Assembly (NCBI GenBank): GCA_032718475.1
Contig: JAUCBJ010009125.1
Coordinates: 51,002-115,001, forward strand
Length of the DNA: 64,000 bases
Direction of reading: 5' to 3'
Source: Nemertoderma westbladi
Taxonomy: Eukaryota; Animalia; Xenacoelomorpha
Part shown: one piece after another, positions 942 to 56,411 of the stretch
Position numbering within the stretch: the first letter of the stretch is position 1
How the letters are laid out: each line of letters opens with the position of its first letter
The notes under the pieces: model-generated
What the model saw: the letters and a program-made list of their open reading frames with translations, nothing else
Told to the model about the DNA's origin: nothing
The model's database searches: none
Program-made: the position numbers and the translations under genes

Positions 942-3900
942 TGGGCAGTATTAATTACTACTCCACCATACGTGTTCCTAACCAACAGATGTCGAGTGTG
1001 GCTACGTTTGGCCTTAATGAAGAAAACATTATCAAGTTTACTTCGAGTTCTTGTGGAAAATGTTAGCCTAACTAAGAGACTGTACAACGAATGGGCTGTG
1101 TTACTCCACGAAGAAGGTATGCACACATCATATTCTAATTATCACGTCCTTTTGTTAAATTAATTATGTCATATGCCTAGGCCACATCAATCTTCACAAG
1201 ATAGAAAGCTTAGCCAATTCCAATATATTATTTATTATCCAAATAATTCGGCCCAATATTGAAGAGCAATCTTCGGGCGATAAAGATGAATAATAACAAC
1301 TTAATTAAGTCATTGTGGAGCTGATTATGAACAAAAATGAAACTGTAAGCTGTGCTATTAACTCTTGGCGTAGTGGTGAAATCCGTTGCCATGGAATCAC
1401 ATCTCTCCGAATAACGTGGGTTCGATCCCCGCGTGATGGCATGGGCAGTTTTAGTTTCGGCACGAATACTGGTGGATGCGCCATGGTGACTAAATGGGTA
1501 CAGGAGTTACATATCGCTGGGGAGTATAGTTCTGGGGGGACCGCACTGGAAATAAGTCCTCAAACCTTGTGCGTATTACCTACCTGGCCTAACGGCCGAA
1601 TAATGTTTGCCTCCAAATATGTTTCTCAATAAGGTTGGAGTGAGAAAAAACGGTGACTCCCGCTAATTATCAATTAAAGGAAAGCTGTTATTAGCAACAC
1701 AGCTTGCTTACACAGCAAAACACAGCCAATTTTCAATTCGATTTCCGGTTTATTTTCGCGCGCACACGGGTTTCGACCATATCCTAGTGTTTAAACAATA
1801 AGAGCACCCCGCCGTTCGATCCAAGGTAGGAGAGCACCTTGTTACCCGTTATTCAGTGTAGGACACTTTGTTATCCGTTATTCAATGTAGAGCACCTTGT
1901 TACTCGTTATTCAGCGTAGGACACCTTGTAACCCGTCGTTTAGTGTAGGGCACCTTGTTACCAGTCATTCAATGTCGGGCACCTTGTTACCAGTCATTCA
2001 GTGTAGGGCACCTTGTTACCCGTTATTCAGTGTAGGGCACCTTGTTACCCGTTATTCAATGTAGGGCACCTTGTTACCAGTCATTCAGTGTATGGCACCT
2101 TGTTACCCGTTATTCAGCGTAGGACACCTTGTTACCTATTATTCAGTGTAGGGCACCTTGTTACCCGTTATTCAATGTAGAGCACCTTGTTACTCGTTAT
2201 TCAGTGTATGGCACCTTGTTACCCGTTATTCAGTGTAGGGCACCTTGTTACCCGTTATTCAGTGTAGGGCACCTTGTTACCTGTTATTCAATGTACGGCA
2301 CCTTGTTACCAGTCATTCAGTGTAGGGCACCTTGTTACCCGTTATTCAATGTAGAGCACCTTGTTACTCGTTATTCAGTGTATGGCACCTTGTTACCCGT
2401 TATTCAGTGTAGGACACCTTTTTACCCGTTATTCAGTGTATGACACCTTGTTACCCGTTATTCAGTGTAGGGCACCTTGTTACCCGTTATTCAATGTAGA
2501 GCACCTTGTTACTCGTTATTCAGTGTATGGCACCTTGTTACCCGTTATTCAGTGTAGGGCACCTTGTTACCCGTTATTCAGTGTAGGGCACCTTGTTACC
2601 TGTTATTCAATGTACGGCACCTTGTTACCAGTCATTCAGTGTAGGGCACCTTGTTACCCGTTATTCAGTGTAGGGCACCTTGTTACCTGTTATTCAATGT
2701 ACGGCACCTTGTTACCAGTCATTCAGTGTAGGGCACCTTGTTACCCGTTATTCAGTGTATGACACCTTGTTACCAGTCATTCAGTGTAGGGCACCTTGTT
2801 ACCTGTTATTCAATGTACGGCACCTTGTTACCAGTCATTCAGTGTAGGACACCTTGTTACCCGTTATTCAGTGTAGGGCACCTTGTTACCCGATATTCAG
2901 TGTAGGGCACCTTGTTACCTGTTATTCAATGTACGGCACCTTGTTACCAGTCATTCAGTGTAGGACACCTTGTTACCAGTCATTCAGTGTAGGGCACCTT
3001 GTTACCCGATATTCAGTGTAGGGCACCTTGTTACCCGTTATTCAGTGTAGGGCACCTTGTTACCTGTTATTCAATGTACGGCACCTTGTTACCAGTCATT
3101 CAGTGTAGGGCACCTTGTTACCCGTTATTCAGTGTATGACACCTTGTTACCAGTCATTCAGTGTAGGGCACCTTTTTACCTGTTATTCAATGTACGGCAC
3201 CTTGTTACCAGTCATTCAGTGCAGGGCACCTTGTTACCCGTTATTAAGTGTAGGGCACCTTGTAACCCGTCGTTCAGTGTAGGGAACCTTGTTACCCGTT
3301 ATTCAGTGTAGGGAACCTTGTTACCCGTTATTCAGTGTAGGGCACCTTGTTACCCGATATTCAGTGTAGGGCACCTTGTTACCCGTTATTCAGTGTATGA
3401 CACCTTGTTACCAGTCATTCAGTGTAGGGCACCTTTTTACCTGTTATTCAATGTACGGCACCTTGTTACCAGTCATTCAGTGCAGGGCACCTTGTTACCC
3501 GTTATTAAGTGTAGGGCACCTTGTAACCCGTCGTTCAGTGTAGGGAACCTTGTTACCCGTTATTCAGTGTAGGGAACCTTGTTACCCGTTATTCAGTGTA
3601 GGGAACCTTGTTACCCGTTATTCAGTGTAGGGCACCTTGTTACCCGATATTCAGTGTAGGGCACCTTGTTACCCGTTATTCAGTGTATGACACCTTGTTA
3701 CCCGTTATTCAGTGTAGGGCACCTTGTTACCCGTTATTCAGTGTATGACACCTTGTTACCCGTTATTCAGTGTAGGGCACCTTGTTACCCGTTATTCAGT
3801 GTATGACACCTTGTTACCCGTTATTCAGTGTAGGGCACCTTGTTACCCGTTATTCAGTGTAGGGCACCTTGTTACCCGTTATTCAGTGTATGACACCTTG

Positions 3901-8954: not shown

Positions 8955-11434
8955 CTGAATTATTTTGGACAGAATAAAAGCTCCTTTAGAGGAAATCCCA
9001 GAACATGTTAGATCCAACCAGCTGATACACATCGTGTTCTTTATACCCCATGATAAAACTGTAAAATAGATTTAATTTAGTTATCTAACATATTTATTTT
9101 ATACGGAATAAATAATAAATTAATTGTTGCGGCTGCGGGGTGACGGTGAATTAAATATAAATAGTGTAATAGGACAGCATGATAAAGCTCTCCATAGCGA
9201 AAAATAAAAAACAGACCCTATTGGGGTTCGAACCAGGTACCTAGGTTTCAAACTTCCGGTTATCATCAGCCGGGTGAGTGTGTCTATGACAACAGAGCTA
9301 CCAGGAAGGATGAAGAAGTTATTCGCCTAGTGGGCTGTACTTTCCTTTGAGTGGTTGTAAAAATGGAAAAAACCATAACGAATAAATTCTTCAGCCGTCC
9401 TGTTAGCGGTAGCTCAGTTGTCATAGACACACACACACACCAGGCTGAAGATAACCGGAAGTTTGAAACCTAGGTACCGGGTTCGAGCACCAATGAGGTC
9501 GGTTGATATTTTCCGCTATGAAGATCATATTCATATTGTTCTATAATACATCGAATATATAAATAATAGATACAATTAAGTAAATATTGCATATATATAC
9601 TCCTCGGTCTAGCGAGGAAAGAAAATAAACGTAGAAAGTTTGAGAATTAATAATCAGGGTTGCCATTCTAGTTCAGTTTTAATGACATTTCCCTGACTTT
9701 TTGAAAAAATTCCCTGACTGCCTGCTAGCAGGTTCACAGCATTTTTATAAAATATAGAGTATATTATTTTATTGACCGCTTTATTATATTCCAAACAAAG
9801 TTAAGCGATTCGAGTGCGCCTATATATTTAGTGATGTGAGGAAATCGAATGGCGAGCGAATCGATCACAGAACATTTTACAGGTTTTCGCTTGTTTATAA
9901 AACTTGTCCTGTACATTCACTGACGTTTACCTGATTTGTCCATTTTTTACAAGAATTCCCTGACAAAAAATGAAATTCGCTGACTATTCCAGGTATTCCA
10001 GGTGAGTGGCAACCCTGATAATAGAAAGATAATTGATCAGATGACGCGAAAACTGCAATAGTTTGTAAATATAATTGCTAGATTTTATTAAGAATGGTTG
10101 TAAATATATTAGGTGTATAATTAATGGAGATTCAAAATCTTCAAGTTTTTCTCTATCAAAACAAAGTTCAATATATTTAGTTAGCGATATATTCAATATA
10201 TTAAATGAAATGACTTGATGACTTACCCTCTAAGCCTTTGTCGCGGATGTCTGTAAATGCGAGTGACAATGTAGTTAGTGAGGTTGACTCCTTCAGACCT
10301 TGAGCTAAAATCTGGAAATAAATACGGTGAATTGGATAAACGGACCAGTTGATAAATGTAATAATTAATATTAATATAACCCAATAACCGATGCACTGAT
10401 TGGTGTGATTAGGAACTCAATATAAGGTACAAACAAACCTTCAAGTCTGTGTTTCTGAGAGACAATCCCTCGAGTTCTAGAACCTTTAAGGACGAATTAA
10501 TCAGCAAACAATCCCGGAGACTGGAGCAGAGATTCTCGGCAACTAATCGATCGCGAACGGAAGGACAACGGGGTTTCAGTTTAATCGATTTACTTCCTAT
10601 TAAAAATAATAATAAAGAGTCAGGAGTAATATAGTTCGGATGATACTAGGTGTGTGTGTACGGTAATCAGAATTCCGGCCGGAAGGGAATTACACCCCAA
10701 GTCTATCAACCTACATACATACATAGAACACATACATGGGGAAGGGGGGGGGGGGGGGGGGTGTTGGGATTGGTGACGGTTTTTCCCATTTAATCTACCT
10801 TTGGTTGTATCTCCTGGCTCGTAGTAACTACGCAACGCTATCACTCTCAATCCCCTGTTGACCTTCACGCAGTTGAGAAAAGGTGACCAGTCGTCCATTT
10901 TCAGTCGGTCTGAATTTAGATCGACCACACGTTCCTGTACAAATAGATAGTATGTAACTGGTAGCTATAAAAAAATTCTGGAATTAGGAAAGGTGCCGTT
11001 AAGTAAGTTTCACGTTTTCACGCACAATTTACGAAATTAACAAACATTCTACATATTATGGTCCTAAGATATGTCTACCCTGACTCTTCTTTCCTCTAAA
11101 AAAGCAAATAGTAAATTAAATTCTGAATTAGGTTCGGATTATCAAACTTATCAACGTAGCAGTTTGTTTTGCAGTCTGCAGATAATTTGCACATTATATG
11201 CTACATTGGTCTCCAGTACACCTGGCTGTTACACCTGGCTGGCTACGACCGGCTGTTACACTCTTAATGGGTTGACACTTTCGATCTAGGATCCGTCAGA
11301 CCTACCTGGACGTGAGCTTTGACAGCAGGTACGGGAACTGAGTCCTGGAGAAGACACAAGTTGTCATAGTGAGAAGCGAAGTCGTATGCCCCTCTCTGTC
11401 GCTCCGCTACTGACTGGATGAGGCTTGTACCCAT
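8955..11434 (-). CDS. CEP78: Centrosomal protein 78, first five coding exons (LRR region)
   Basis: Exons 11434-11306, 10934-10799, 10596-10439, 10311-10227, 9058-8955 in phase with GT-AG: MGTSLIQSVAERQRGAYDFASHYDNLCLLQDSVPVPAV.., DLNSDRLKMDDWSPFL, LKVLELEGLSLRNTDLKILAQGLKES.., matching the CEP78 N-terminus. No later exon found. Confidence 0.85.
9232..9275 (-). ncRNA. Minimal type I hammerhead ribozyme motif between tRNA-like A and B boxes
   Basis: acccgg CTGATGA taac-cggaa-gttt GAAAC ctag GTA cctggt; palindromic stem III ACCTAGGT; predicted cleavage after 9238. Stem II lacks the usual G-C closing pair. Confidence 0.7.
9439..9482 (+). ncRNA. Minimal type I hammerhead ribozyme motif between tRNA-like A and B boxes
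   Basis: accagg CTGAAGA taac-cggaa-gttt GAAAC ctag GTA ccgggt; A box TAGCTCAGTTG upstream, GGTTCGAGC overlapping the 3' strand, TTTT at 9509-9512. Confidence 0.7.
9655..10017. mobile_element. hAT-like MITE
   Basis: TIR CAGGGTTGCCA..TGGCAACCCTG; 5-bp flanking repeat ATAAT; internal ttccctgac repeats. Confidence 0.8.
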
Positions 11435-19235: not shown

Positions 19236-20287
19236 TAATCAAAACAATTAGTCAATAAACATTAACTCAATAACATAATAGGCTGATAGGTTACAGTTTA
19301 CAGTAGTCTTATTTTTGCCATACGAAAATACCACAGGTATGGCAGTATGGGTATGACGTATGAATGAACTATACAGCTATAACTCAACTACGCTACCGCG
19401 GTATACACGCTAAGGCAGTAAGGCTACCGCAAAGCTATACCACTACCGCAAAAAGTAAACCGCAAAAAGTAACTACTAATGTCTGACTGTACGTGTGCGA
19501 TCCCTGTTTATAATACATATAATAATTAATTTGATCATTAAAATAATGTTGCATTGTAATTATGTAATATATATGTACTGATACGGGATGCAGTTTTGAT
19601 TTAAATACCGATATACAGTATGGCAGCATGGGTACACTTGGAGTTGTACTAAAGTCCAATATTGGACTTTGGAGTCCAAAATTGGACTTGAAGTCTAAAA
19701 TTGGACTTGAAGTCCAATTTTTCACTTCTCACCGACTGACAGTATTAATGTTTAATGTTTATGTTTAATGTAAATAGGGCGTGAGGAAGCAAATGCTTTT
19801 AAAGCCCGTACACACAATAAATAAAATTAACGGAGACATATGTAAAATATATATATGAAATTGTACTGTACACATAAATAAAATATTGACTGGGTTAAAA
19901 CACAGGGTTTTAGGTAAAACTGAACGTAATCGGGACCGCACAAAGTACATAGTATGATAATAGGCTAGGAAAAAAAGCGTTAGTTCAAATTAGTTCAAAT
20001 TATTAACATGAATACCAGAATACCGTCTTAGGTTTTGATTATTGATAGTAAGAATGTGTTGGCAAGCTGTATTTTTCGAGGTGTTTGCGCCAATAAAAGA
20101 TAAGTTATTTTCGGTAAAATAAACTTATCATTCGAGGTTAAGACCCCTAGATCCCTTCCTATAATAAATGTATAATAACAAACACCTCGAAAAATACAGC
20201 TTGCCAACACATTCTTACTATCAATAATCAAAAATCAGGGGCTAATAAAATGGCAGCTGTCTTTGAAATTAATTCTCCATATCTCAA

Positions 20288-20457
20288 GAACCTGTGGCCT
20301 AGTGGTTGTAGTCTCGGCTTCCGCCTCGAGGTCCCAGGTTCGAATCCGACACCACGCTGATGAGACCCAGTAAGGTCGAAACGCGTACGTGGTTTGGAGA
20401 GATATGAGATATTAATTTCAAGAAAAATTACGCGATTCCTAAATTTGTACACTACCC

Positions 20458-20495
<38 letters not shown>
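20288..20495 (+). mobile_element. tRNA-derived head + hammerhead + poly(A) SINE-like unit
   Basis: A box TGGCCTAGTGG, B box GGTTCGAATCC, hammerhead immediately after, long A run 20462-20495. Confidence 0.65.
20351..20393 (+). ncRNA. Minimal type I hammerhead ribozyme
   Basis: accacg CTGATGA gacc-cagtaa-ggtc GAAAC gc GTA cgtggt: perfect 6-bp stem I, 4-bp stem II with G-C closing pair, palindromic stem III ACGCGT; cleavage predicted after 20387. Confidence 0.9.
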
Positions 20496-20498
<3 letters not shown>

Positions 20499-20802
20499 CG
20501 CATGTGATGGGATTAGTCCTACAATTGCGCCAATAAAAGATAAGTTATTTTCGGTAAAATAAACTTATCATTCGAGGTTAAGACCCCTAGATCCCTTCCT
20601 ATAATAAATGTCTTAGGTTTTGGACTATGCAACTGCACTACCGGTACTCACAACGTTTCACTGTTTTAATTAGGCCCCTAAATATTTCAATGTAAAATTT
20701 CCCATTATTTACTGTAAATGCTGCTTGGTAGGTACCCTAAACTTTTAAATTGTGAACTAATTTTTAAATTAAATTATATTTTAACGCTATTTTAATTGAA
20801 TA

Positions 20803-20844
20803 TACCGCTGAAGACGCCCGCGAGGGTGAAATGGCCATACGGTA
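20803..20844 (+). ncRNA. Minimal type I hammerhead ribozyme (Penelope-like)
   Basis: taccg CTGAAGA c gccc-gcga-gggt GAAA tggcca TA cggta; GNRA-capped stem II, palindromic stem III ATGGCCAT. Confidence 0.8.
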
Positions 20845-21171
20845 AATAATTAACTTCATTTTTTATATATCCACGTGGTGAAAGACCCTTCCTTGCCTTT
20901 ATTAATCCTGTAATTAAGAATACCGTCTGACCGTATTACAGTCTGACAGTATTATGTTATTTCAGTATTTCTGTATTTAGAGAGACTGTCAGACTGCTGA
21001 ACAGTGACGGTGCTGGTGCAGTGGTGCCCTTACTGCCTTACCTTGTACCTGTTACCCTATCTGCCTATAATAAATAGGCCTACCCTGTACCCTCAGACCC
21101 TATCAGCCTATTTATGCTTTATCCAGTTATCTCGCTGTCAATCTATATATATAAATATCATGTGATGTGTG

Positions 21172-38947: not shown

Positions 38948-39346
38948 TCAGTAGTACTATTGCAAGACCTATTTTGCGATAGCCGTACCGGTACTAAATT
39001 AGATTAGATGTACTAAAAAAATAGTTCAACAATCAGCTGATTCAGGTGAGGGTAGTTGTATCCGGTTGCCAAGAGATATGTTATTAATAAACAAAAACAG
39101 CTGTTAGAATTAAATGTTGTTACAGAACAGGCTGCAGTAAGCAAGCAGTATGTGTGAATTCGGTTTGATTGTTATCTGCTTTATATTTACCGTTTAGGGC
39201 CTGCGTATGTTCTCATGCTACTCTTTAGCAACTGATACGGTTTTACAGTTCATACATATATTTATATTACCAGTATTATCAGTTCCTTCATACTACGGTT
39301 GGATGGTCATTAATGTTTCTGCACAGAACGTTTAACAAATAAGAGA

Positions 39347-40096
39347 ATGCCCGGGGTTGCTTTAATTGTGGGTGCGACCGGGGCCACTGGACGACAAGTG
39401 GTTGAACAACTGCTGGGTCGGGGGTTTAAGGTGCGAGCGATCGTGCGTTCGCCCGATAGTCTACCGGAAACGGTCAAAGCCAACGAAAATCTCACCCTAA
39501 CGACGGCCAATACATTGGATTTGAGCGACAGAGAGTTGTCGGAACATGTTGCTGGATGCACAGCTGTAATATCTTGTTTAGGGCACAGAGGAACATTCAA
39601 CGGTTTGTTCGGACGCCCACGCGATCTCGTGTTGACTGCAACTTCACGATTATGCGAGGCGATCCGAGTTGGTGAATCGAAGGAACGCACAAAGTTCATT
39701 CTAATGAACACGGTTTTAGTTGAAAACGTTAACCCAAACGAGAATGAACGTCGTAGTGTGTGGGATCGTTCGATTATTTATGCGTTAAGTTGGATTCTGC
39801 CTCCGCATAATGATAACATACAGGCAGCCCAGTACCTTCAGACAGGAGTAGGCATCGGTCCCGATAGGCCTGAATGGGTGGCCGTTCGGCCTGGCGGGTT
39901 GGTGAATGAGTCGGTATCGGAATACAGTCTACATCCATCGCCGATAACAAATTCGATATTTACCGCAGGAAAAGTTTCCCGGGCCAACGTGGCCCACTTC
40001 ATGTGCGAGTTGGTAGAGAATAGGGATGTATGGGATAAGTGGAAGGGCAGAATGCCGGTGATACTGAACGCTAAACAAGGAAATACTAAAAACTAG
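39347..40096 (+). CDS. NAD(P)-binding Rossmann-fold oxidoreductase (atypical SDR / flavin-reductase-like), intronless
   Basis: 249-aa intact ORF, VGATGATG nucleotide-binding loop, AVISCLG, WVAVRPGGL, VSRANVAHFM. Confidence 0.88.
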   Translation: MPGVALIVGATGATGRQVVEQLLGRGFKVRAIVRSPDSLPETVKANENLTLTTANTLDLSDRELSEHVAGCTAVISCLGHRGTFNGLFGRPRDLVLTATSRLCEAIRVGESKERTKFILMNTVLVENVNPNENERRSVWDRSIIYALSWILPPHNDNIQAAQYLQTGVGIGPDRPEWVAVRPGGLVNESVSEYSLHPSPITNSIFTAGKVSRANVAHFMCELVENRDVWDKWKGRMPVILNAKQGNTKN

Positions 40097-46931: not shown

Positions 46932-49307
46932 TTATTCCCATTCTGTAGTTCCGGGTGGTTTGGCAGTGAGATCGTATAGAACGCGAGACACGCCTGGTAC
47001 GGCAGCCACAGCGGCAACCATCGATGCGACAACCAACACGTCTATATCGCGACCAGGCACTGCGGGAACACCCGTCATAAAGTCCCGCGTGATAAACGGA
47101 CGAAGTACCACGGAACGCCGCTGGGAGTCGCCCTCGAAATCCAATGGGAGAAGAACGACGGGCATTTGGGCGAGTCGGCGTACAGCGCCGGCTGCTCGGA
47201 GGGCGGAATGGGCGGCGTCGTCCACCAAACGCGATAATTCTAGAACGTCCGGAGTGAGAGTAGTCGGGGTAACGTCCTGTGGCTCAGAGGTAACTGCCGG
47301 ACCGAAAACGTAAACAACTCGGTTTACGTTGTGTTGCAGACGAGGAATAATCTTAGCGAGGGAGATTAGAAGCTCCCAGTTGGGTTGGGCCGAGGGGGAG
47401 CTGAGGGCAACCGCGTAGCTGTAGGACCGAGAGTCGCCCTGAACCCCGACCGATCGCACCGGGAGGAGCACCGACGATAAATCCGTCGACGAAACGGCTT
47501 GCATTGTCTCGCGTTGTTCCGGGCTCAACTCGTACGTTCCGCGCCCCGCGAGGAACGCGGAAACCGAGTCGCGGGTGGCCGCGTAGGAACGCGTTCCTCG
47601 CGCACAGAACGCGGATCGCGAGACCCGGGCCCGGGAACGGGTGCCGTTCCACGAACGCTTCGAACAGACCGAGGTCCCGTCCCTGTTGTCGGACCTGCAA
47701 TGAAAGAGGCAGAAGGAAATAAAAATGACTTAAATATAAATATTTATTTATCTTAATTGTGTTAATCAATAAACATGTTTTGGTATAAAATAAATTAATT
47801 TGAAGAGAACAGTTCATATATAATTAAGAGAGATACACCTCCAGTAGAGGTAAATAGGTGATTATATTATATAATATAAATAGAAATCAAAACTTAATTA
47901 AAAAATAACGGAGTAAAAGTAAAAAAAAAAAGATTGAAAACTTAGGAGATAAAGAGTGGCAATCCCCTGGGCCAGCAGACACGTGGACGTGTCCAACCCG
48001 AGACGCGACAACTCGTCCTCGATGACCCGCATAAAGGTGTCCCCGATGATCCGTCGTTTATCCTCCGGCTCCACGACGTCACGCAATGCCGGCGTCTCCC
48101 GGGAACCACCAACGGTGGTCCGAGCCGAGTAGAACTCCTCGCTGGCGTCCAGATATCGGACCTTGAGACCCAGGCCGTTGAGGGCGCGGACCACCTGGGT
48201 CGACTCGTCTAGTCGCATGAACCCGTTGTTGATGTGAACCGCGATGATGGAGTCAGATGGGATGGCCTTGTGGAGCAGCGCAGCGCAGACAGTGGAGTCG
48301 ACCCCGCCACTAACAAGGACAATCACCTGTGAAATAGAAATAGAATTTCCTTAGACTTTTAATACCACACTGATTTGGTATTAATAATGAAGTTCCGCCT
48401 TATCGGAAGTGACACTCTCCCAACGGTACCTTTTTCCACCGGTACCGGAAGTGACGTCTCTCCGTTTCCCTTACTGATACCTGTGTAACGGAAGTGACGC
48501 CCCTCTGCTTCGCCGTTTACTTTACCTTTGGACCGGAAGTGACACCACTCTATTTCCTTTACCTTTCTGCCGGAAGTGACGTCTCTCCGTTTCCCTTACC
48601 TTTGTACCGGAAGTGACGCCTCTCCGTTCCGCCGTTTCCCTTACCTTTGTACCGGAAGTGACGCACCGCTGTATCTCGGCGGTACAACTCGCTTCTCGGT
48701 TATCCATAGTAAAGTTACCGGTGCAACCCGCAACTTTGTACAGGAAGTTCCTCATCATGACCCGCCCGTTGGTGGTGAGATCAACCTCGGGGTGGAACTG
48801 CACCCCGTAGAACGGACGCGATTCGTGTGCCAACGCCGCCACCATGTCGCCGGACCGCGCCACAACCCGGTAACCAGGGGCAACCGAGGTAACCGTATCC
48901 CCGTGGGTTAGCAGCACCGACTGGCGGGCTTCCAGTGAACTAAACAGAGGACAATCCGTTTCCACCGTAACATCGAACTGGCCATCTTCTCTTGCTTCTT
49001 TCTTCTCGACTTTGCCTTCGAAGATGTTGTTTATCAGTTGTAGTCCGTAGCAGATACCTAGAACCGGAATCCCCAAAGAGAATATACCCGGATCGCATCG
49101 TGGAGAGTCTGGTGACGTCACGCTTTCTGGGCCGCCCGATATAATGATCGCTTTGAAGCCCTTCCTACGTAGTTCCTCTGGGTCGGTGTTTAACGGCAGT
49201 AACTCGGTCCCAACGTTCAGCTCACGCACTTTACGATCTATAACTTTGCCGTATTGCGCTCCCGCGTCCAATAACGCTACAAACTCTGCTGAATGGCACG
49301 TCGACAT
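46932..49307 (-). pseudogene. GMPS: GMP synthase (glutamine-hydrolysing), apparently disabled copy
   Basis: Exons 49307-48645, 48326-~47966, 47695-46932: [51 protein letters not shown]. No GT donor after LAQG, the segment between LAQG and VR..G is absent, and frame shifts near 47585. Confidence 0.8.
48400..48665. repeat. ~37-45-bp tandem copies of the GMPS exon 1 end and donor
   Basis: Minus-strand unit cgtcacttccggtacaaag|GTAAGGgaaacggagaga, decaying into the intron. Confidence 0.85.
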
Positions 49308-49742
49308 AATTAATTACCGCTAATTCTGTAATTCAATTATTAACATACAATATTTGTAGGCCTAATTATTATAGTACCTGCTTCTGAGGTTTTAGAATGA
49401 GCTGATTTCATTGGGAATGTTTATAAAATTGTGGTACTTTCAAAAATGGCCAATGTCTGAATGTGCCAGTCGAAAATTTTAAGTGCCAGCCAGTGCACTT
49501 CTATTCCAGTACTGCAGTACTCTGGTCGGTACTGGTCCGGTAATGCAGTGTATTATTCTGTATGTGGTATGTGCATTATACTGCACTACTGCGTTAGGCA
49601 ATAGATTAATGCTGAGTGCATTATGCTGTTGCTGTCATCATTATTACATTACCTGATTACCTGTGTTTATTTGACTAATTATTATCACTTCTACACAGGG
49701 CTCGCAGCCACGGGGGCCTAATCTAATCTGGACATACAGTAG

Positions 49743-55010: not shown

Positions 55011-55355
55011 AGCCGAGGTGGAACTTCACCGGTTAACCGCTGGTTTGATACTACCGGTTTAGTGTTGCATGGCAATCTGGTATAGGCATCGCATAGGCAT
55101 AGGCTATGCTATTAACTTTACTGCACTACCGGTACCGGTATATAATCTACCCTGCTACCGTCCGGTACTGATATCGTTGTTGATTAGGTTTTCTTTTAGG
55201 TACCGGTACTGGTATCATAATTATTTCACTCGTAAGACAGTAAGTCTGACCGCATTACTGCAATACCGACTTTTCGACTCGATATTTACTTATTAACGAA
55301 AATAGATGCTCTACATTGAATTACTTTAAATTGAATTGATTTGATAATATACAAA

Positions 55356-56411
55356 ATGTATTTCTTGACTCTGGTACTCATTTATACGATTTGTTTCTGT
55401 AGCTTTTTTTACGTTATGTTGATGGGAAACACGAGATTCCACCGCGGTGGTTTAGTTGGCCGTCTCCGATCCAACATACTCGACACGTGTTCTCGAATAT
55501 TCGATAGACTACTCCCGAACTGTGTACATACGACTTACCTGCGGTCCACCCATTTCTTCCTCGCCACTCGAACTTCCTTCTTTATCTACCTAAACGCGGC
55601 GCTTCTCTGTTTGGGTATTTCCGAGTATTTATACGACGTTCGTTTTTACACGTGGCAACTCGGGATGCCTTCCCATTACCTCGTCCGACAACTCGGATTG
55701 ATCGCCGTCCATGTCATCCTACTCTTATCGTGTCGTTTCTCAGACCCCGGTAGAGTAACGCGATCTAACGTGTCTAAATACATGGCGCAATTCCCCTACG
55801 ATCGTGTTTATTATTTCCCTAGGAACTCGTGTAGGTCTTGCGAGCTCGGTAAACCCGCTCGCTCCAAGCACTGCAACCTGTGTGGCGGCTGCGTGGCTCG
55901 AATGGACCATCACTGCGTCTGGGTAAACAATTGTATCGGATCTAAAAATTACTCATATTTCATCGGTTATCTATTTTCCCTCATCGCAATGACTACTTAC
56001 GCTTTCCACACGACCATTCACGTTTTTCATCGACTTATTTTTGTTCTAAAGATTTGGGAATGGCGTTGGGTTGACGAGGCAGGAGAGTCTCACCCTGCGA
56101 CTCCGATGCTAATGAGTCAACAACTATTCATGGAATATCCACGCATGGTCGTGTTCCTTATGGCCATGCTGTTACTAACCCTCGGTTTAATTGGATTATT
56201 TGGTTTCCATATTTATCTCCTATTGGCCAATCGTACCACGAACGAATTCTATAAGTGCCCCCCTCATCATTGCCATGGTGGCGACAACGGTGTCGCTAAA
56301 ACCAAGGTAATTAAGACTGTCCCGAGGTCAGTCGGTAAGGTTGGTAAGAATTCCGTTAAGAACATCTACAATCGCGGTATATTGCGTAATATTTGTGAAG
56401 TATTTCTATAA
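55356..56411 (+). CDS. ZDHHC4: DHHC palmitoyltransferase, ZDHHC4/Swf1-like, single coding exon
   Basis: SDPG, CRSCELGKPARSKHCNLCGGCVARMDHHCVWVNNCIG, TTNE and C-terminal NIYNRGILRNICEVF; multiple TM segments. Confidence 0.9.
   Translation: MYFLTLVLIYTICFCSFFYVMLMGNTRFHRGGLVGRLRSNILDTCSRIFDRLLPNCVHTTYLRSTHFFLATRTSFFIYLNAALLCLGISEYLYDVRFYTWQLGMPSHYLVRQLGLIAVHVILLLSCRFSDPGRVTRSNVSKYMAQFPYDRVYYFPRNSCRSCELGKPARSKHCNLCGGCVARMDHHCVWVNNCIGSKNYSYFIGYLFSLIAMTTYAFHTTIHVFHRLIFVLKIWEWRWVDEAGESHPATPMLMSQQLFMEYPRMVVFLMAMLLLTLGLIGLFGFHIYLLLANRTTNEFYKCPPHHCHGGDNGVAKTKVIKTVPRSVGKVGKNSVKNIYNRGILRNICEVFL

What the first reader, a model, noticed from the sequence alone, without database searches (positions are those of the whole stretch)
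20259..20495. tRNA-like head fused directly to a canonical hammerhead, followed by poly(A)
Seen: A box, B box, then ..ACCA running straight into a textbook minimal hammerhead (20351-20393), then a long A run. The cassette is enclosed by an imperfect ~25-bp inverted repeat (20259-20285 / 20399-20422). Unrelated in sequence to the 9.2-9.5 kb pair, so a second independent tRNA-promoter/hammerhead fusion in one window. Inference: a SINE or retrozyme mobilised by Penelope-like machinery, with the ribozyme defining a transcript end.
Basis: partly seen in the sequence, partly recalled or inferred. Interest (0 to 1): 0.8.

Follow-up and report, generated by a model that had tools for sequence, protein, structure and literature searches.

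The report
Ribozyme retroelement with tRNA promoter
This is one copy of an abundant, roughly 410-base non-coding repeat in an animal genome that places a tRNA-type promoter motif directly before a hammerhead ribozyme motif, as the known schistosome Sm-alpha repeat does, and its insertion scars suggest it likely borrows the enzyme of a Penelope-type retrotransposon, a link so far only proposed for such repeats.

Summary
The A box, B box, type I hammerhead, flanking hairpin arms and A run are all present. The element is larger than described: 20025-20622, with a 13-bp target duplication, a 55-nt inverted piece, and 1.2 turns of a unit bounded by perfect 87-nt direct repeats. In public DNA runs the whole unit is a high-copy, homogeneous repeat with head and hammerhead linked in other copies, so chance nesting is refuted. 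One contig closes into a 411-nt cycle. The A run is internal and mostly specific to this copy, not a tail, and 'ACCA' is hammerhead helix I, not a tRNA end. Other copies end at two hot spots about 60 nt apart, which match the two ends of this copy: the Penelope 'tail' signature. Best reading: an Sm-alpha-like non-LTR retrozyme, Pol III-driven, cut by a dimer-only hammerhead and inserted by a Penelope-type protein, likely from a circular RNA. Transcription, cleavage, circles, tandem arrays and the partner enzyme are untested. It is a new member of a known kind, with unusually readable evidence on how it moves.

The parts
20025..20037 (+). Left target-site duplication (13 bp)
   Evidence: Exact repeat at 20610-20622; 2 occurrences in the window
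20033..20087 (-). Inverted 'tail': exact reverse complement of 20179-20233
   Evidence: 55 nt exact; 5-nt microhomology with the duplication, 3-nt overlap with the direct part
20085..20524 (+). One period of the repeat unit (440 nt here; 411 nt in the contig that spans it)
   Evidence: GC 36.8%; circular fold z -3.75 against 60 shuffles
20085..20171 (+). First copy of the 87-nt direct repeat
   Evidence: 100% identical to 20525-20611
20172..20233 (+). A+C-rich segment between the two copy-end hot spots (putative reverse transcription start sites)
   Evidence: 73% A+C against 57% for the unit; loose ends behind 20166-20175 and 20228
20259..20285 (+). 5' arm of the long hairpin that closes head plus hammerhead
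20288..20347 (+). Degenerate tRNA-like head; A box 20295-20305, B box 20337-20347; start at 20288 inferred from tRNA numbering
   Evidence: not called at default thresholds
20351..20393 (+). Canonical type I hammerhead motif, palindromic helix III 20381-20386, predicted cut after 20387
20399..20423 (+). 3' arm of the long hairpin
20462..20495 (+). Internal A run, 34 A in this copy
   Evidence: stretch 29 nt shorter in the X3 contig
20525..20611 (+). Second copy of the 87-nt direct repeat; holds a T4 run at 20548-20551
20610..20622 (+). Right target-site duplication
   Evidence: 2-nt microhomology with the element end

Best explanation
The locus is one more-than-unit-length insertion of a high-copy, non-coding repeat of about 411 nt that carries A and B boxes directly before a type I hammerhead motif, and it likely moves as a retrozyme using a Penelope-type reverse transcriptase-endonuclease. 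Shown: the anatomy, abundance, linkage, two preferred copy ends, inverted tail and 13-bp duplication. Inferred cycle: RNA polymerase III starts at the head of one unit of a tandem source and reads into the next. Two hammerheads pair through their palindromic helix III and cut out a monomer, which a host ligase would close into a circle. The Penelope-type protein makes two staggered nicks 13 nt apart in AT-rich DNA, and both 3' ends prime copying of the same RNA at two sites about 60 nt apart (unit positions 20171 and 20229-33). One cDNA runs 1.2 turns and gives the 87-nt direct repeats; the other stops just short of the first primer and gives the inverted tail. This copy has one hammerhead and is probably a dead end.
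For: Abundance and linkage: 3407 (X1) and 1365 (X4) contigs lie on one 440-nt period, summed depth 1.4e5-8.4e5 over 20100-20429 against about 13-37 for the long listed contigs, with no drop at the B box/hammerhead junction; 7 of 27 listed pieces and 5 of 20 (9 distinct) bridge that junction. None of the 12 variants listed at 2% or more falls in the A box, B box or ribozyme. Closed 411-nt cycle in the X3 contig. Copy-end hot spots with unrelated flanks (agreement 0.41-0.51): behind 20228 in 17 and 18 contigs, behind 20166-20175 in 18 and 24 contigs; they match this copy's two ends. Opposite-strand joints in other single-depth contigs. Two direct plus one inverted repeat, a tail and an 8-10-bp duplication are the Penelope anatomy (PMC3846280); a Penelope protein nicks and extends both strands and starts at two adjacent internal sites in an AC-rich region (PMC11167929). 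Two copies of the ribozyme co-fold as a double hammerhead at -31.7 kcal/mol against -11.7 each. The direct part crosses the cut site with about 300 nt before and 224 nt after, so a cut linear monomer cannot be its template. The rare C at 20214 (family 98.5% and 99.9% G in X1 and X4) is in both the direct and the inverted copy, as expected if one template was copied twice.
Against: No genome is held, so no tandem array with two hammerheads was seen and no autonomous Penelope partner was found; the two reverse transcriptase fragments in the window look like LINE types by recalled motif, and no shared sequence with a Penelope end was tested. The head is too degenerate for default tRNA callers. 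A T4 run at 20548 could stop Pol III before the next unit. The closed cycle also arises from terminal redundancy or tandem DNA. The shared rare base could come from a homogeneous linear dimer or from conversion between the nearby inverted copies. In the one Penelope element tested, ribozyme cutting was not needed for insertion (PMC11167929), and 8 of 9 Xenopus retrozyme dimers did not cleave in vitro (10.64898/2026.07.22.740005). The tail segment has five A at its 3' end, so LINE priming on a short A tract is not excluded.
Confidence: 0.68

Rival explanations
1. Same element and same Penelope partner, but the template is an uncut linear multimer read through from a tandem source or a host promoter; the hammerhead is a conserved passenger or acts at another step, and no circle is needed.
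For: Uncut RNA was the dominant substrate for the anole Penelope protein in vitro (PMC11167929); helix III cannot form in a monomer; the direct part spans the cut site intact.
Against: The rare C20214 would have to sit in both units of the dimer; circles are shown for coral, mussel and axolotl repeats of this build (PMC7229834).
Confidence: 0.3
2. The unit is the pseudo-LTR of an autonomous Penelope-like element that happens to have a tRNA-type promoter, and this copy is a truncated end piece.
Against: The unit closes on itself with no coding sequence between end and start (X3 contig and this copy); longest stop-free stretch in the element 94 codons; no listed loose end has both many contigs and high agreement; the ribozyme is the canonical, not the Penelope minimal type.
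Confidence: 0.1
3. A classic tRNA SINE: Pol III transcripts start at the head and are copied by a LINE from an A tract; the hammerhead is inactive.
For: One diverged contig begins at 20285, near the inferred start, and a few loose ends lie before 20278; LINE-like reverse transcriptase fragments exist in the window.
Against: Depth is as high upstream of the head as over it; this copy has about 200 nt of unit before the promoter; the unit continues past the A run; direct repeats and an inverted tail are present.
Confidence: 0.08
4. Chance nesting of a tRNA SINE fragment and a ribozyme fragment.
For: Both kinds of repeat occur separately in the window.
Against: 9 distinct listed contigs from 4 runs bridge the junction; depth is continuous across it.
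Confidence: 0.01

Closest known systems
Schistosome Sm-alpha / Sj-alpha SINE-like repeats (Ferbeyre 1998, not held; seen through passages of PMC6765202 and PMC2770079)
   Same: Pol III-type promoter followed by a type I hammerhead in a short high-copy repeat; the promoter ends up at the 3' end of a cut monomer, so single copies cannot propagate.
   Different: Sm-alpha derives from tRNA-Gln(TTG) by PMC2770079, this head looks Gly-like; the Sm-alpha ribozyme is fast (PMC6155905) while this one is predicted to need a dimer; host proteins here have no listed hit above 62% identity, so a schistosome host is unlikely. Sequences were not compared directly.
Metazoan non-LTR retrozymes (PMC7229834; bioRxiv 10.64898/2026.07.22.740005)
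   Same: 150-450-bp unit, GC under 50%, canonical type I hammerhead, target duplication over 4 bp, self-paired circular fold; helix III like axolotl HHR_Amex1 (one pair plus palindromic tetraloop).
   Different: Neither main text mentions a Pol III or tRNA-derived promoter. Penelope mobilisation is argued there from co-occurrence and pseudo-LTR similarity, not from insertion ends. Tandem arrays and circles are shown there, not here.
Endonuclease-bearing Penelope-like elements (PMC3846280, PMC8557442, PMC11167929, PMC4209133)
   Same: Direct plus inverted terminal repeats, optional tail, two start sites, duplication of about 10 bp, hammerhead.
   Different: No coding frame; canonical rather than minimal hammerhead; tail about 55-60 nt rather than 30-40; tRNA-type promoter.

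Membership tests
Non-LTR retrozyme | Canonical type I hammerhead motif | tested here: met
Non-LTR retrozyme | Unit of 150-450 bp, GC under 50%, multicopy, non-coding | tested here: met
   411-440 nt, 36.8% GC; longest stop-free frame 94 codons
Non-LTR retrozyme | Target duplication longer than 4 bp | tested here: met
   13 bp; one copy only
Non-LTR retrozyme | Tandem copies with at least two hammerheads | tested here: inconclusive
   This copy is 1.2 units with one hammerhead; head-to-tail junction shown, arrays not visible in short contigs
Non-LTR retrozyme | Strongly self-paired circular fold | tested here: met
   Prediction only: z -3.75 and -4.26 against 60 shuffles each
Non-LTR retrozyme | Self-cleavage and circular RNA in cells | not testable with these tools
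   Only contigs were served
Sm-alpha-type element | tRNA-derived A/B boxes directly 5' of the hammerhead | tested here: met
Sm-alpha-type element | Pol III transcription | not testable with these tools
   Motifs only
Sm-alpha family proper | Sequence homology, tRNA-Gln origin, schistosome host | tested here: inconclusive
   No Sm-alpha sequence in hand; head Gly/Arg-like; host unlike any listed species
Penelope-mobilised insertion | Direct and inverted terminal repeats, tail, two preferred copy ends | tested here: met
Penelope-mobilised insertion | Partner RT plus GIY-YIG element sharing the start-site region | not testable with these tools
   No genome; no such domain among 20 of 33 window frames scanned
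Autonomous Penelope-like element | RT and endonuclease frame between the repeats | tested here: not met
Classic tRNA SINE | 5' end at the tRNA head, 3' end at an A-rich tail | tested here: not met
tRNA gene | Intact cloverleaf | tested here: not met

The most novel reading that the evidence does not exclude
A second, independent origin of the Sm-alpha design in another animal lineage: a tRNA-Gly promoter fused to a dimer-only hammerhead gives a Pol III-made circular RNA that a Penelope enzyme copies by priming twice on the same circle. The insertion ends would then be direct genomic evidence both that Penelope proteins mobilise animal retrozymes and that the Penelope inverted tail comes from dual priming on a circular template.
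Probability: 0.35. Interest if true: 0.72.

Novelty: new member of a known kind. Interest (0 to 1): 0.5.

Why it matters
The papers read name Penelope-like elements as candidate movers of animal retrozymes but give no insertion-level evidence, and they leave the promoter unnamed outside schistosomes and newts. This family is young and homogeneous, has a recognisable promoter, and shows the two-site Penelope tail signature. One assembly and a few standard RNA assays could settle which enzyme moves it, whether the template is a circle, and what the ribozyme is for.

Tried and rejected
Genome-wide copy search: no genome held. Self-BLAST of the window: no second copy at E 0.01. Metagenome pattern scan for B box plus hammerhead core: 21 loci, none with A box context and both helices judged from the printed context; L018, L019 are Penelope-type hammerheads without an upstream A box. 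Viral contig scan: 2 loci, no helices. BLAST of the element against all 23 loci: no hit. Genome contigs was not scanned. Expression: no RNA holder listed; X3 is only guessed to be RNA, is labelled another organism and may hold low-level DNA, so it says nothing on expression or circularity. Summed contig depth is no copy number; 316 (X1) and 330 (X4) partly fitting contigs suggest at least 150 sites if most are flanks. The stretch 20452-20524 was skipped by the laying tool, so its zero depth is no finding. The tail segment of this copy folds poorly alone (-0.3 kcal/mol), so a stem-loop there is not shown. Host placement: ZDHHC4 29-40% to listed hits, mostly vertebrates, GMP synthase 57-62% to sturgeon and abalone; animal, phylum not determined. 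Earlier findings by sequence and by place: none. Ferbeyre 1998 and Lunse 2017 were not held.

Full report
Observation. The motifs are real. The A box lies at 20295-20305 and the only strict B box of the window at 20337-20347. An A+B pair at tRNA spacing occurs 2 times in the window against 0.027 per shuffle (8 of 300 shuffles had one). The head is degenerate: ARAGORN and Rfam at E 10 miss it, and ARAGORN at threshold 80 gives a Gly/Arg pseudo-tRNA at 20292-20358. The family majority has A at 20323, which gives a 7-nt loop with anticodon UCC, glycine; the likeness to tRNA-Gly is my reading and was not aligned. The hammerhead at 20351-20393 is the 1 strict match in the window, with 0 in 100 shuffles, and Rfam HH9 matches at E 0.00049, below its gathering score. 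It has a 6-bp helix I, a 4-bp helix II, no extra base after A9, and one helix III pair capped by a palindromic tetraloop. By PMC4209133 (passages) this is the canonical metazoan type that works as a dimer, not the minimal Penelope type. Two copies co-fold as a double hammerhead at -31.7 kcal/mol against -11.7 each. The 'ACCA' is helix I.

True extent. The element runs from 20025 to 20622: a 13-bp duplication (20025-37, 20610-22), an exact 55-nt inverted copy (20033-87) of 20179-20233, then a direct part 20085-20611 whose first and last 87 nt are identical. The direct part is thus one 440-nt period plus 87 nt. One period folds as a circle better than shuffles (z -3.75 and -4.26, 60 shuffles each). 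There is no long reading frame.

Other copies. No genome is held, so I laid contigs of public runs: 4 of 12 listed runs and 4 (X1, X3, X4, X6, X7 in all). On one period, 3407 contigs of X1 and 1365 of X4 were laid; summed depth is 1.4e5-8.4e5 over 20100-20429, against about 13-37 for the long listed contigs, and does not fall between B box and ribozyme. This is not a copy number, but it marks a very abundant repeat. Nine distinct listed contigs bridge the junction with 31 or more letters on each side (7 of 27 rows shown, 5 of 20, 3 shared; thousands of rows were not shown). The family is homogeneous: 10 substitutions and 2 insertions reach 2%, none in the boxes or the ribozyme. The majority A at 20274 adds a pair to the long hairpin. 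The one X3 contig of 441 nt covers 20140-20609 with 5 differences and 29 gaps and overlaps itself by 30 nt: a closed 411-nt cycle, given words of 31 letters (the reading of the overlap is from my knowledge of such assemblies). It shows a head-to-tail junction and that the unit continues past the A run, where it is 29 nt shorter. It does not tell DNA from RNA.

Insertion signature. Among the 13 of 391 loose-end rows shown, contigs leave the unit for unrelated flanks behind 20228 (17 in X1, 18 in X4) and behind 20166-20175 (18 in X1, 24 in X4). These are the two ends of this copy: the direct part ends at unit position 20171 with 2 nt shared with the duplication, and the inverted part starts at 20233 with 5 nt shared. 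The inverted part stops 8 nt from the other start site and overlaps the direct part by 3 nt. The segment between the sites is 73% A+C. Rotifer Penelope insertions have two direct and one inverted repeat, a tail and 8-10-bp duplications (PMC3846280, passages; PMC8557442, passages). The anole Penelope protein nicks and extends both strands of AT-rich DNA and starts at two adjacent internal sites in an AC-rich stem-loop, the sequence between them being the tail (PMC11167929, parts 1-2 of 4). The simplest reading is two nicks 13 nt apart, both priming on one RNA.

Template. The direct part crosses the cut site and includes about 200 nt upstream of the promoter, so neither a cut linear monomer nor this copy's own Pol III transcript can be the template. 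It was an uncut multimer or a circle. If both primers sat on adjacent sites, the tail was copied from the second turn, yet it carries C20214, which 98.5% (X1) and 99.9% (X4) of family depth lacks. A circle explains this directly; a homogeneous dimer or later conversion also can. I put the circle at a little over even odds.

Known systems. Schistosome Sm-alpha is a promoter followed by a hammerhead, appears to be a Pol III transcript and propagates only from tandems (PMC6765202, passages); it is tRNA-Gln-derived (PMC2770079, passages). The original paper was not held. Non-LTR retrozymes of coral, mussel and axolotl are tandem units of this size that make circles, with Penelope elements named as strong candidates for mobilisation (PMC7229834, parts 2-4 of 6 and term search; supplement not opened). 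A 2026 preprint argues the Penelope link from co-occurrence and pseudo-LTR similarity, and found cleavage in 1 of 9 dimers (10.64898/2026.07.22.740005, parts 1-3 of 5; supplements closed and may bear on this). Nine searches listed no paper on a tRNA-promoter hammerhead repeat outside schistosomes, or on Penelope tail ends in a retrozyme; the library lacks most subscription papers and Repbase. Passages of PMC5680766, PMC10886601, PMC6155905 and 10.1101/596502 added nothing against this. Unchecked earlier notes describe similar tRNA-headed Penelope-linked repeats in other genomes; they are leads only.

Against and open. No array with two ribozymes, no partner enzyme, no RNA evidence. A T4 run at 20548 may stop Pol III. 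The host is an animal with no close listed relative; its phylum is unknown, so independent origin from Sm-alpha is likely but not shown. Pattern scans of metagenome and viral contigs found no relative.

Verdict. Real, larger than reported, and best filed as a probable Sm-alpha-like non-LTR retrozyme with a Penelope-type insertion signature. The design is known; the value lies in how testable the mobilisation mechanism is here. Interest 0.5.

Noticed in passing
window 20017-20928: A 12-bp direct repeat (20017-28, 20917-28; 2 occurrences in the window) brackets the element and a lower-copy repeat at about 20623-20916 that holds a second, Penelope-type hammerhead (20803-20844, extra base after A9, palindromic helix III). 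The element looks nested in the 5' edge of an older insertion.
   Followed up: partly
window 9169-9544: The inverted pair has a hammerhead core with weak helices lying between its A box (about 9410) and B box (about 9480), a different order from this element; the two share only B box-region similarity.
   Followed up: partly
window 1366-1428: A third A box/B box head at tRNA spacing, with no hammerhead found nearby.
   Followed up: no
run X7 contig laid on window 20154-20410: One sediment-metagenome contig matches B box plus hammerhead at 79 of 80 letters and the tail region at 36 of 41, with a diverged, longer spacer: a possible sister family.
   Followed up: no
window 20288-20343: The first 7 nt of the head pair perfectly with the T-arm region, so the head is predicted to fold as a rod rather than a cloverleaf.
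   Followed up: no
window 39314-40096, 46932-49313, 55335-56411: NAD-binding (flavin reductase-like) frame, GMP synthase in three close frames, and single-frame ZDHHC4: intron-poor host genes.
   Followed up: partly
L010 1131-1191: A bacterial-type tRNA 3' end followed by a hammerhead-like core with a 5-bp helix II but no type I helix I.
   Followed up: no
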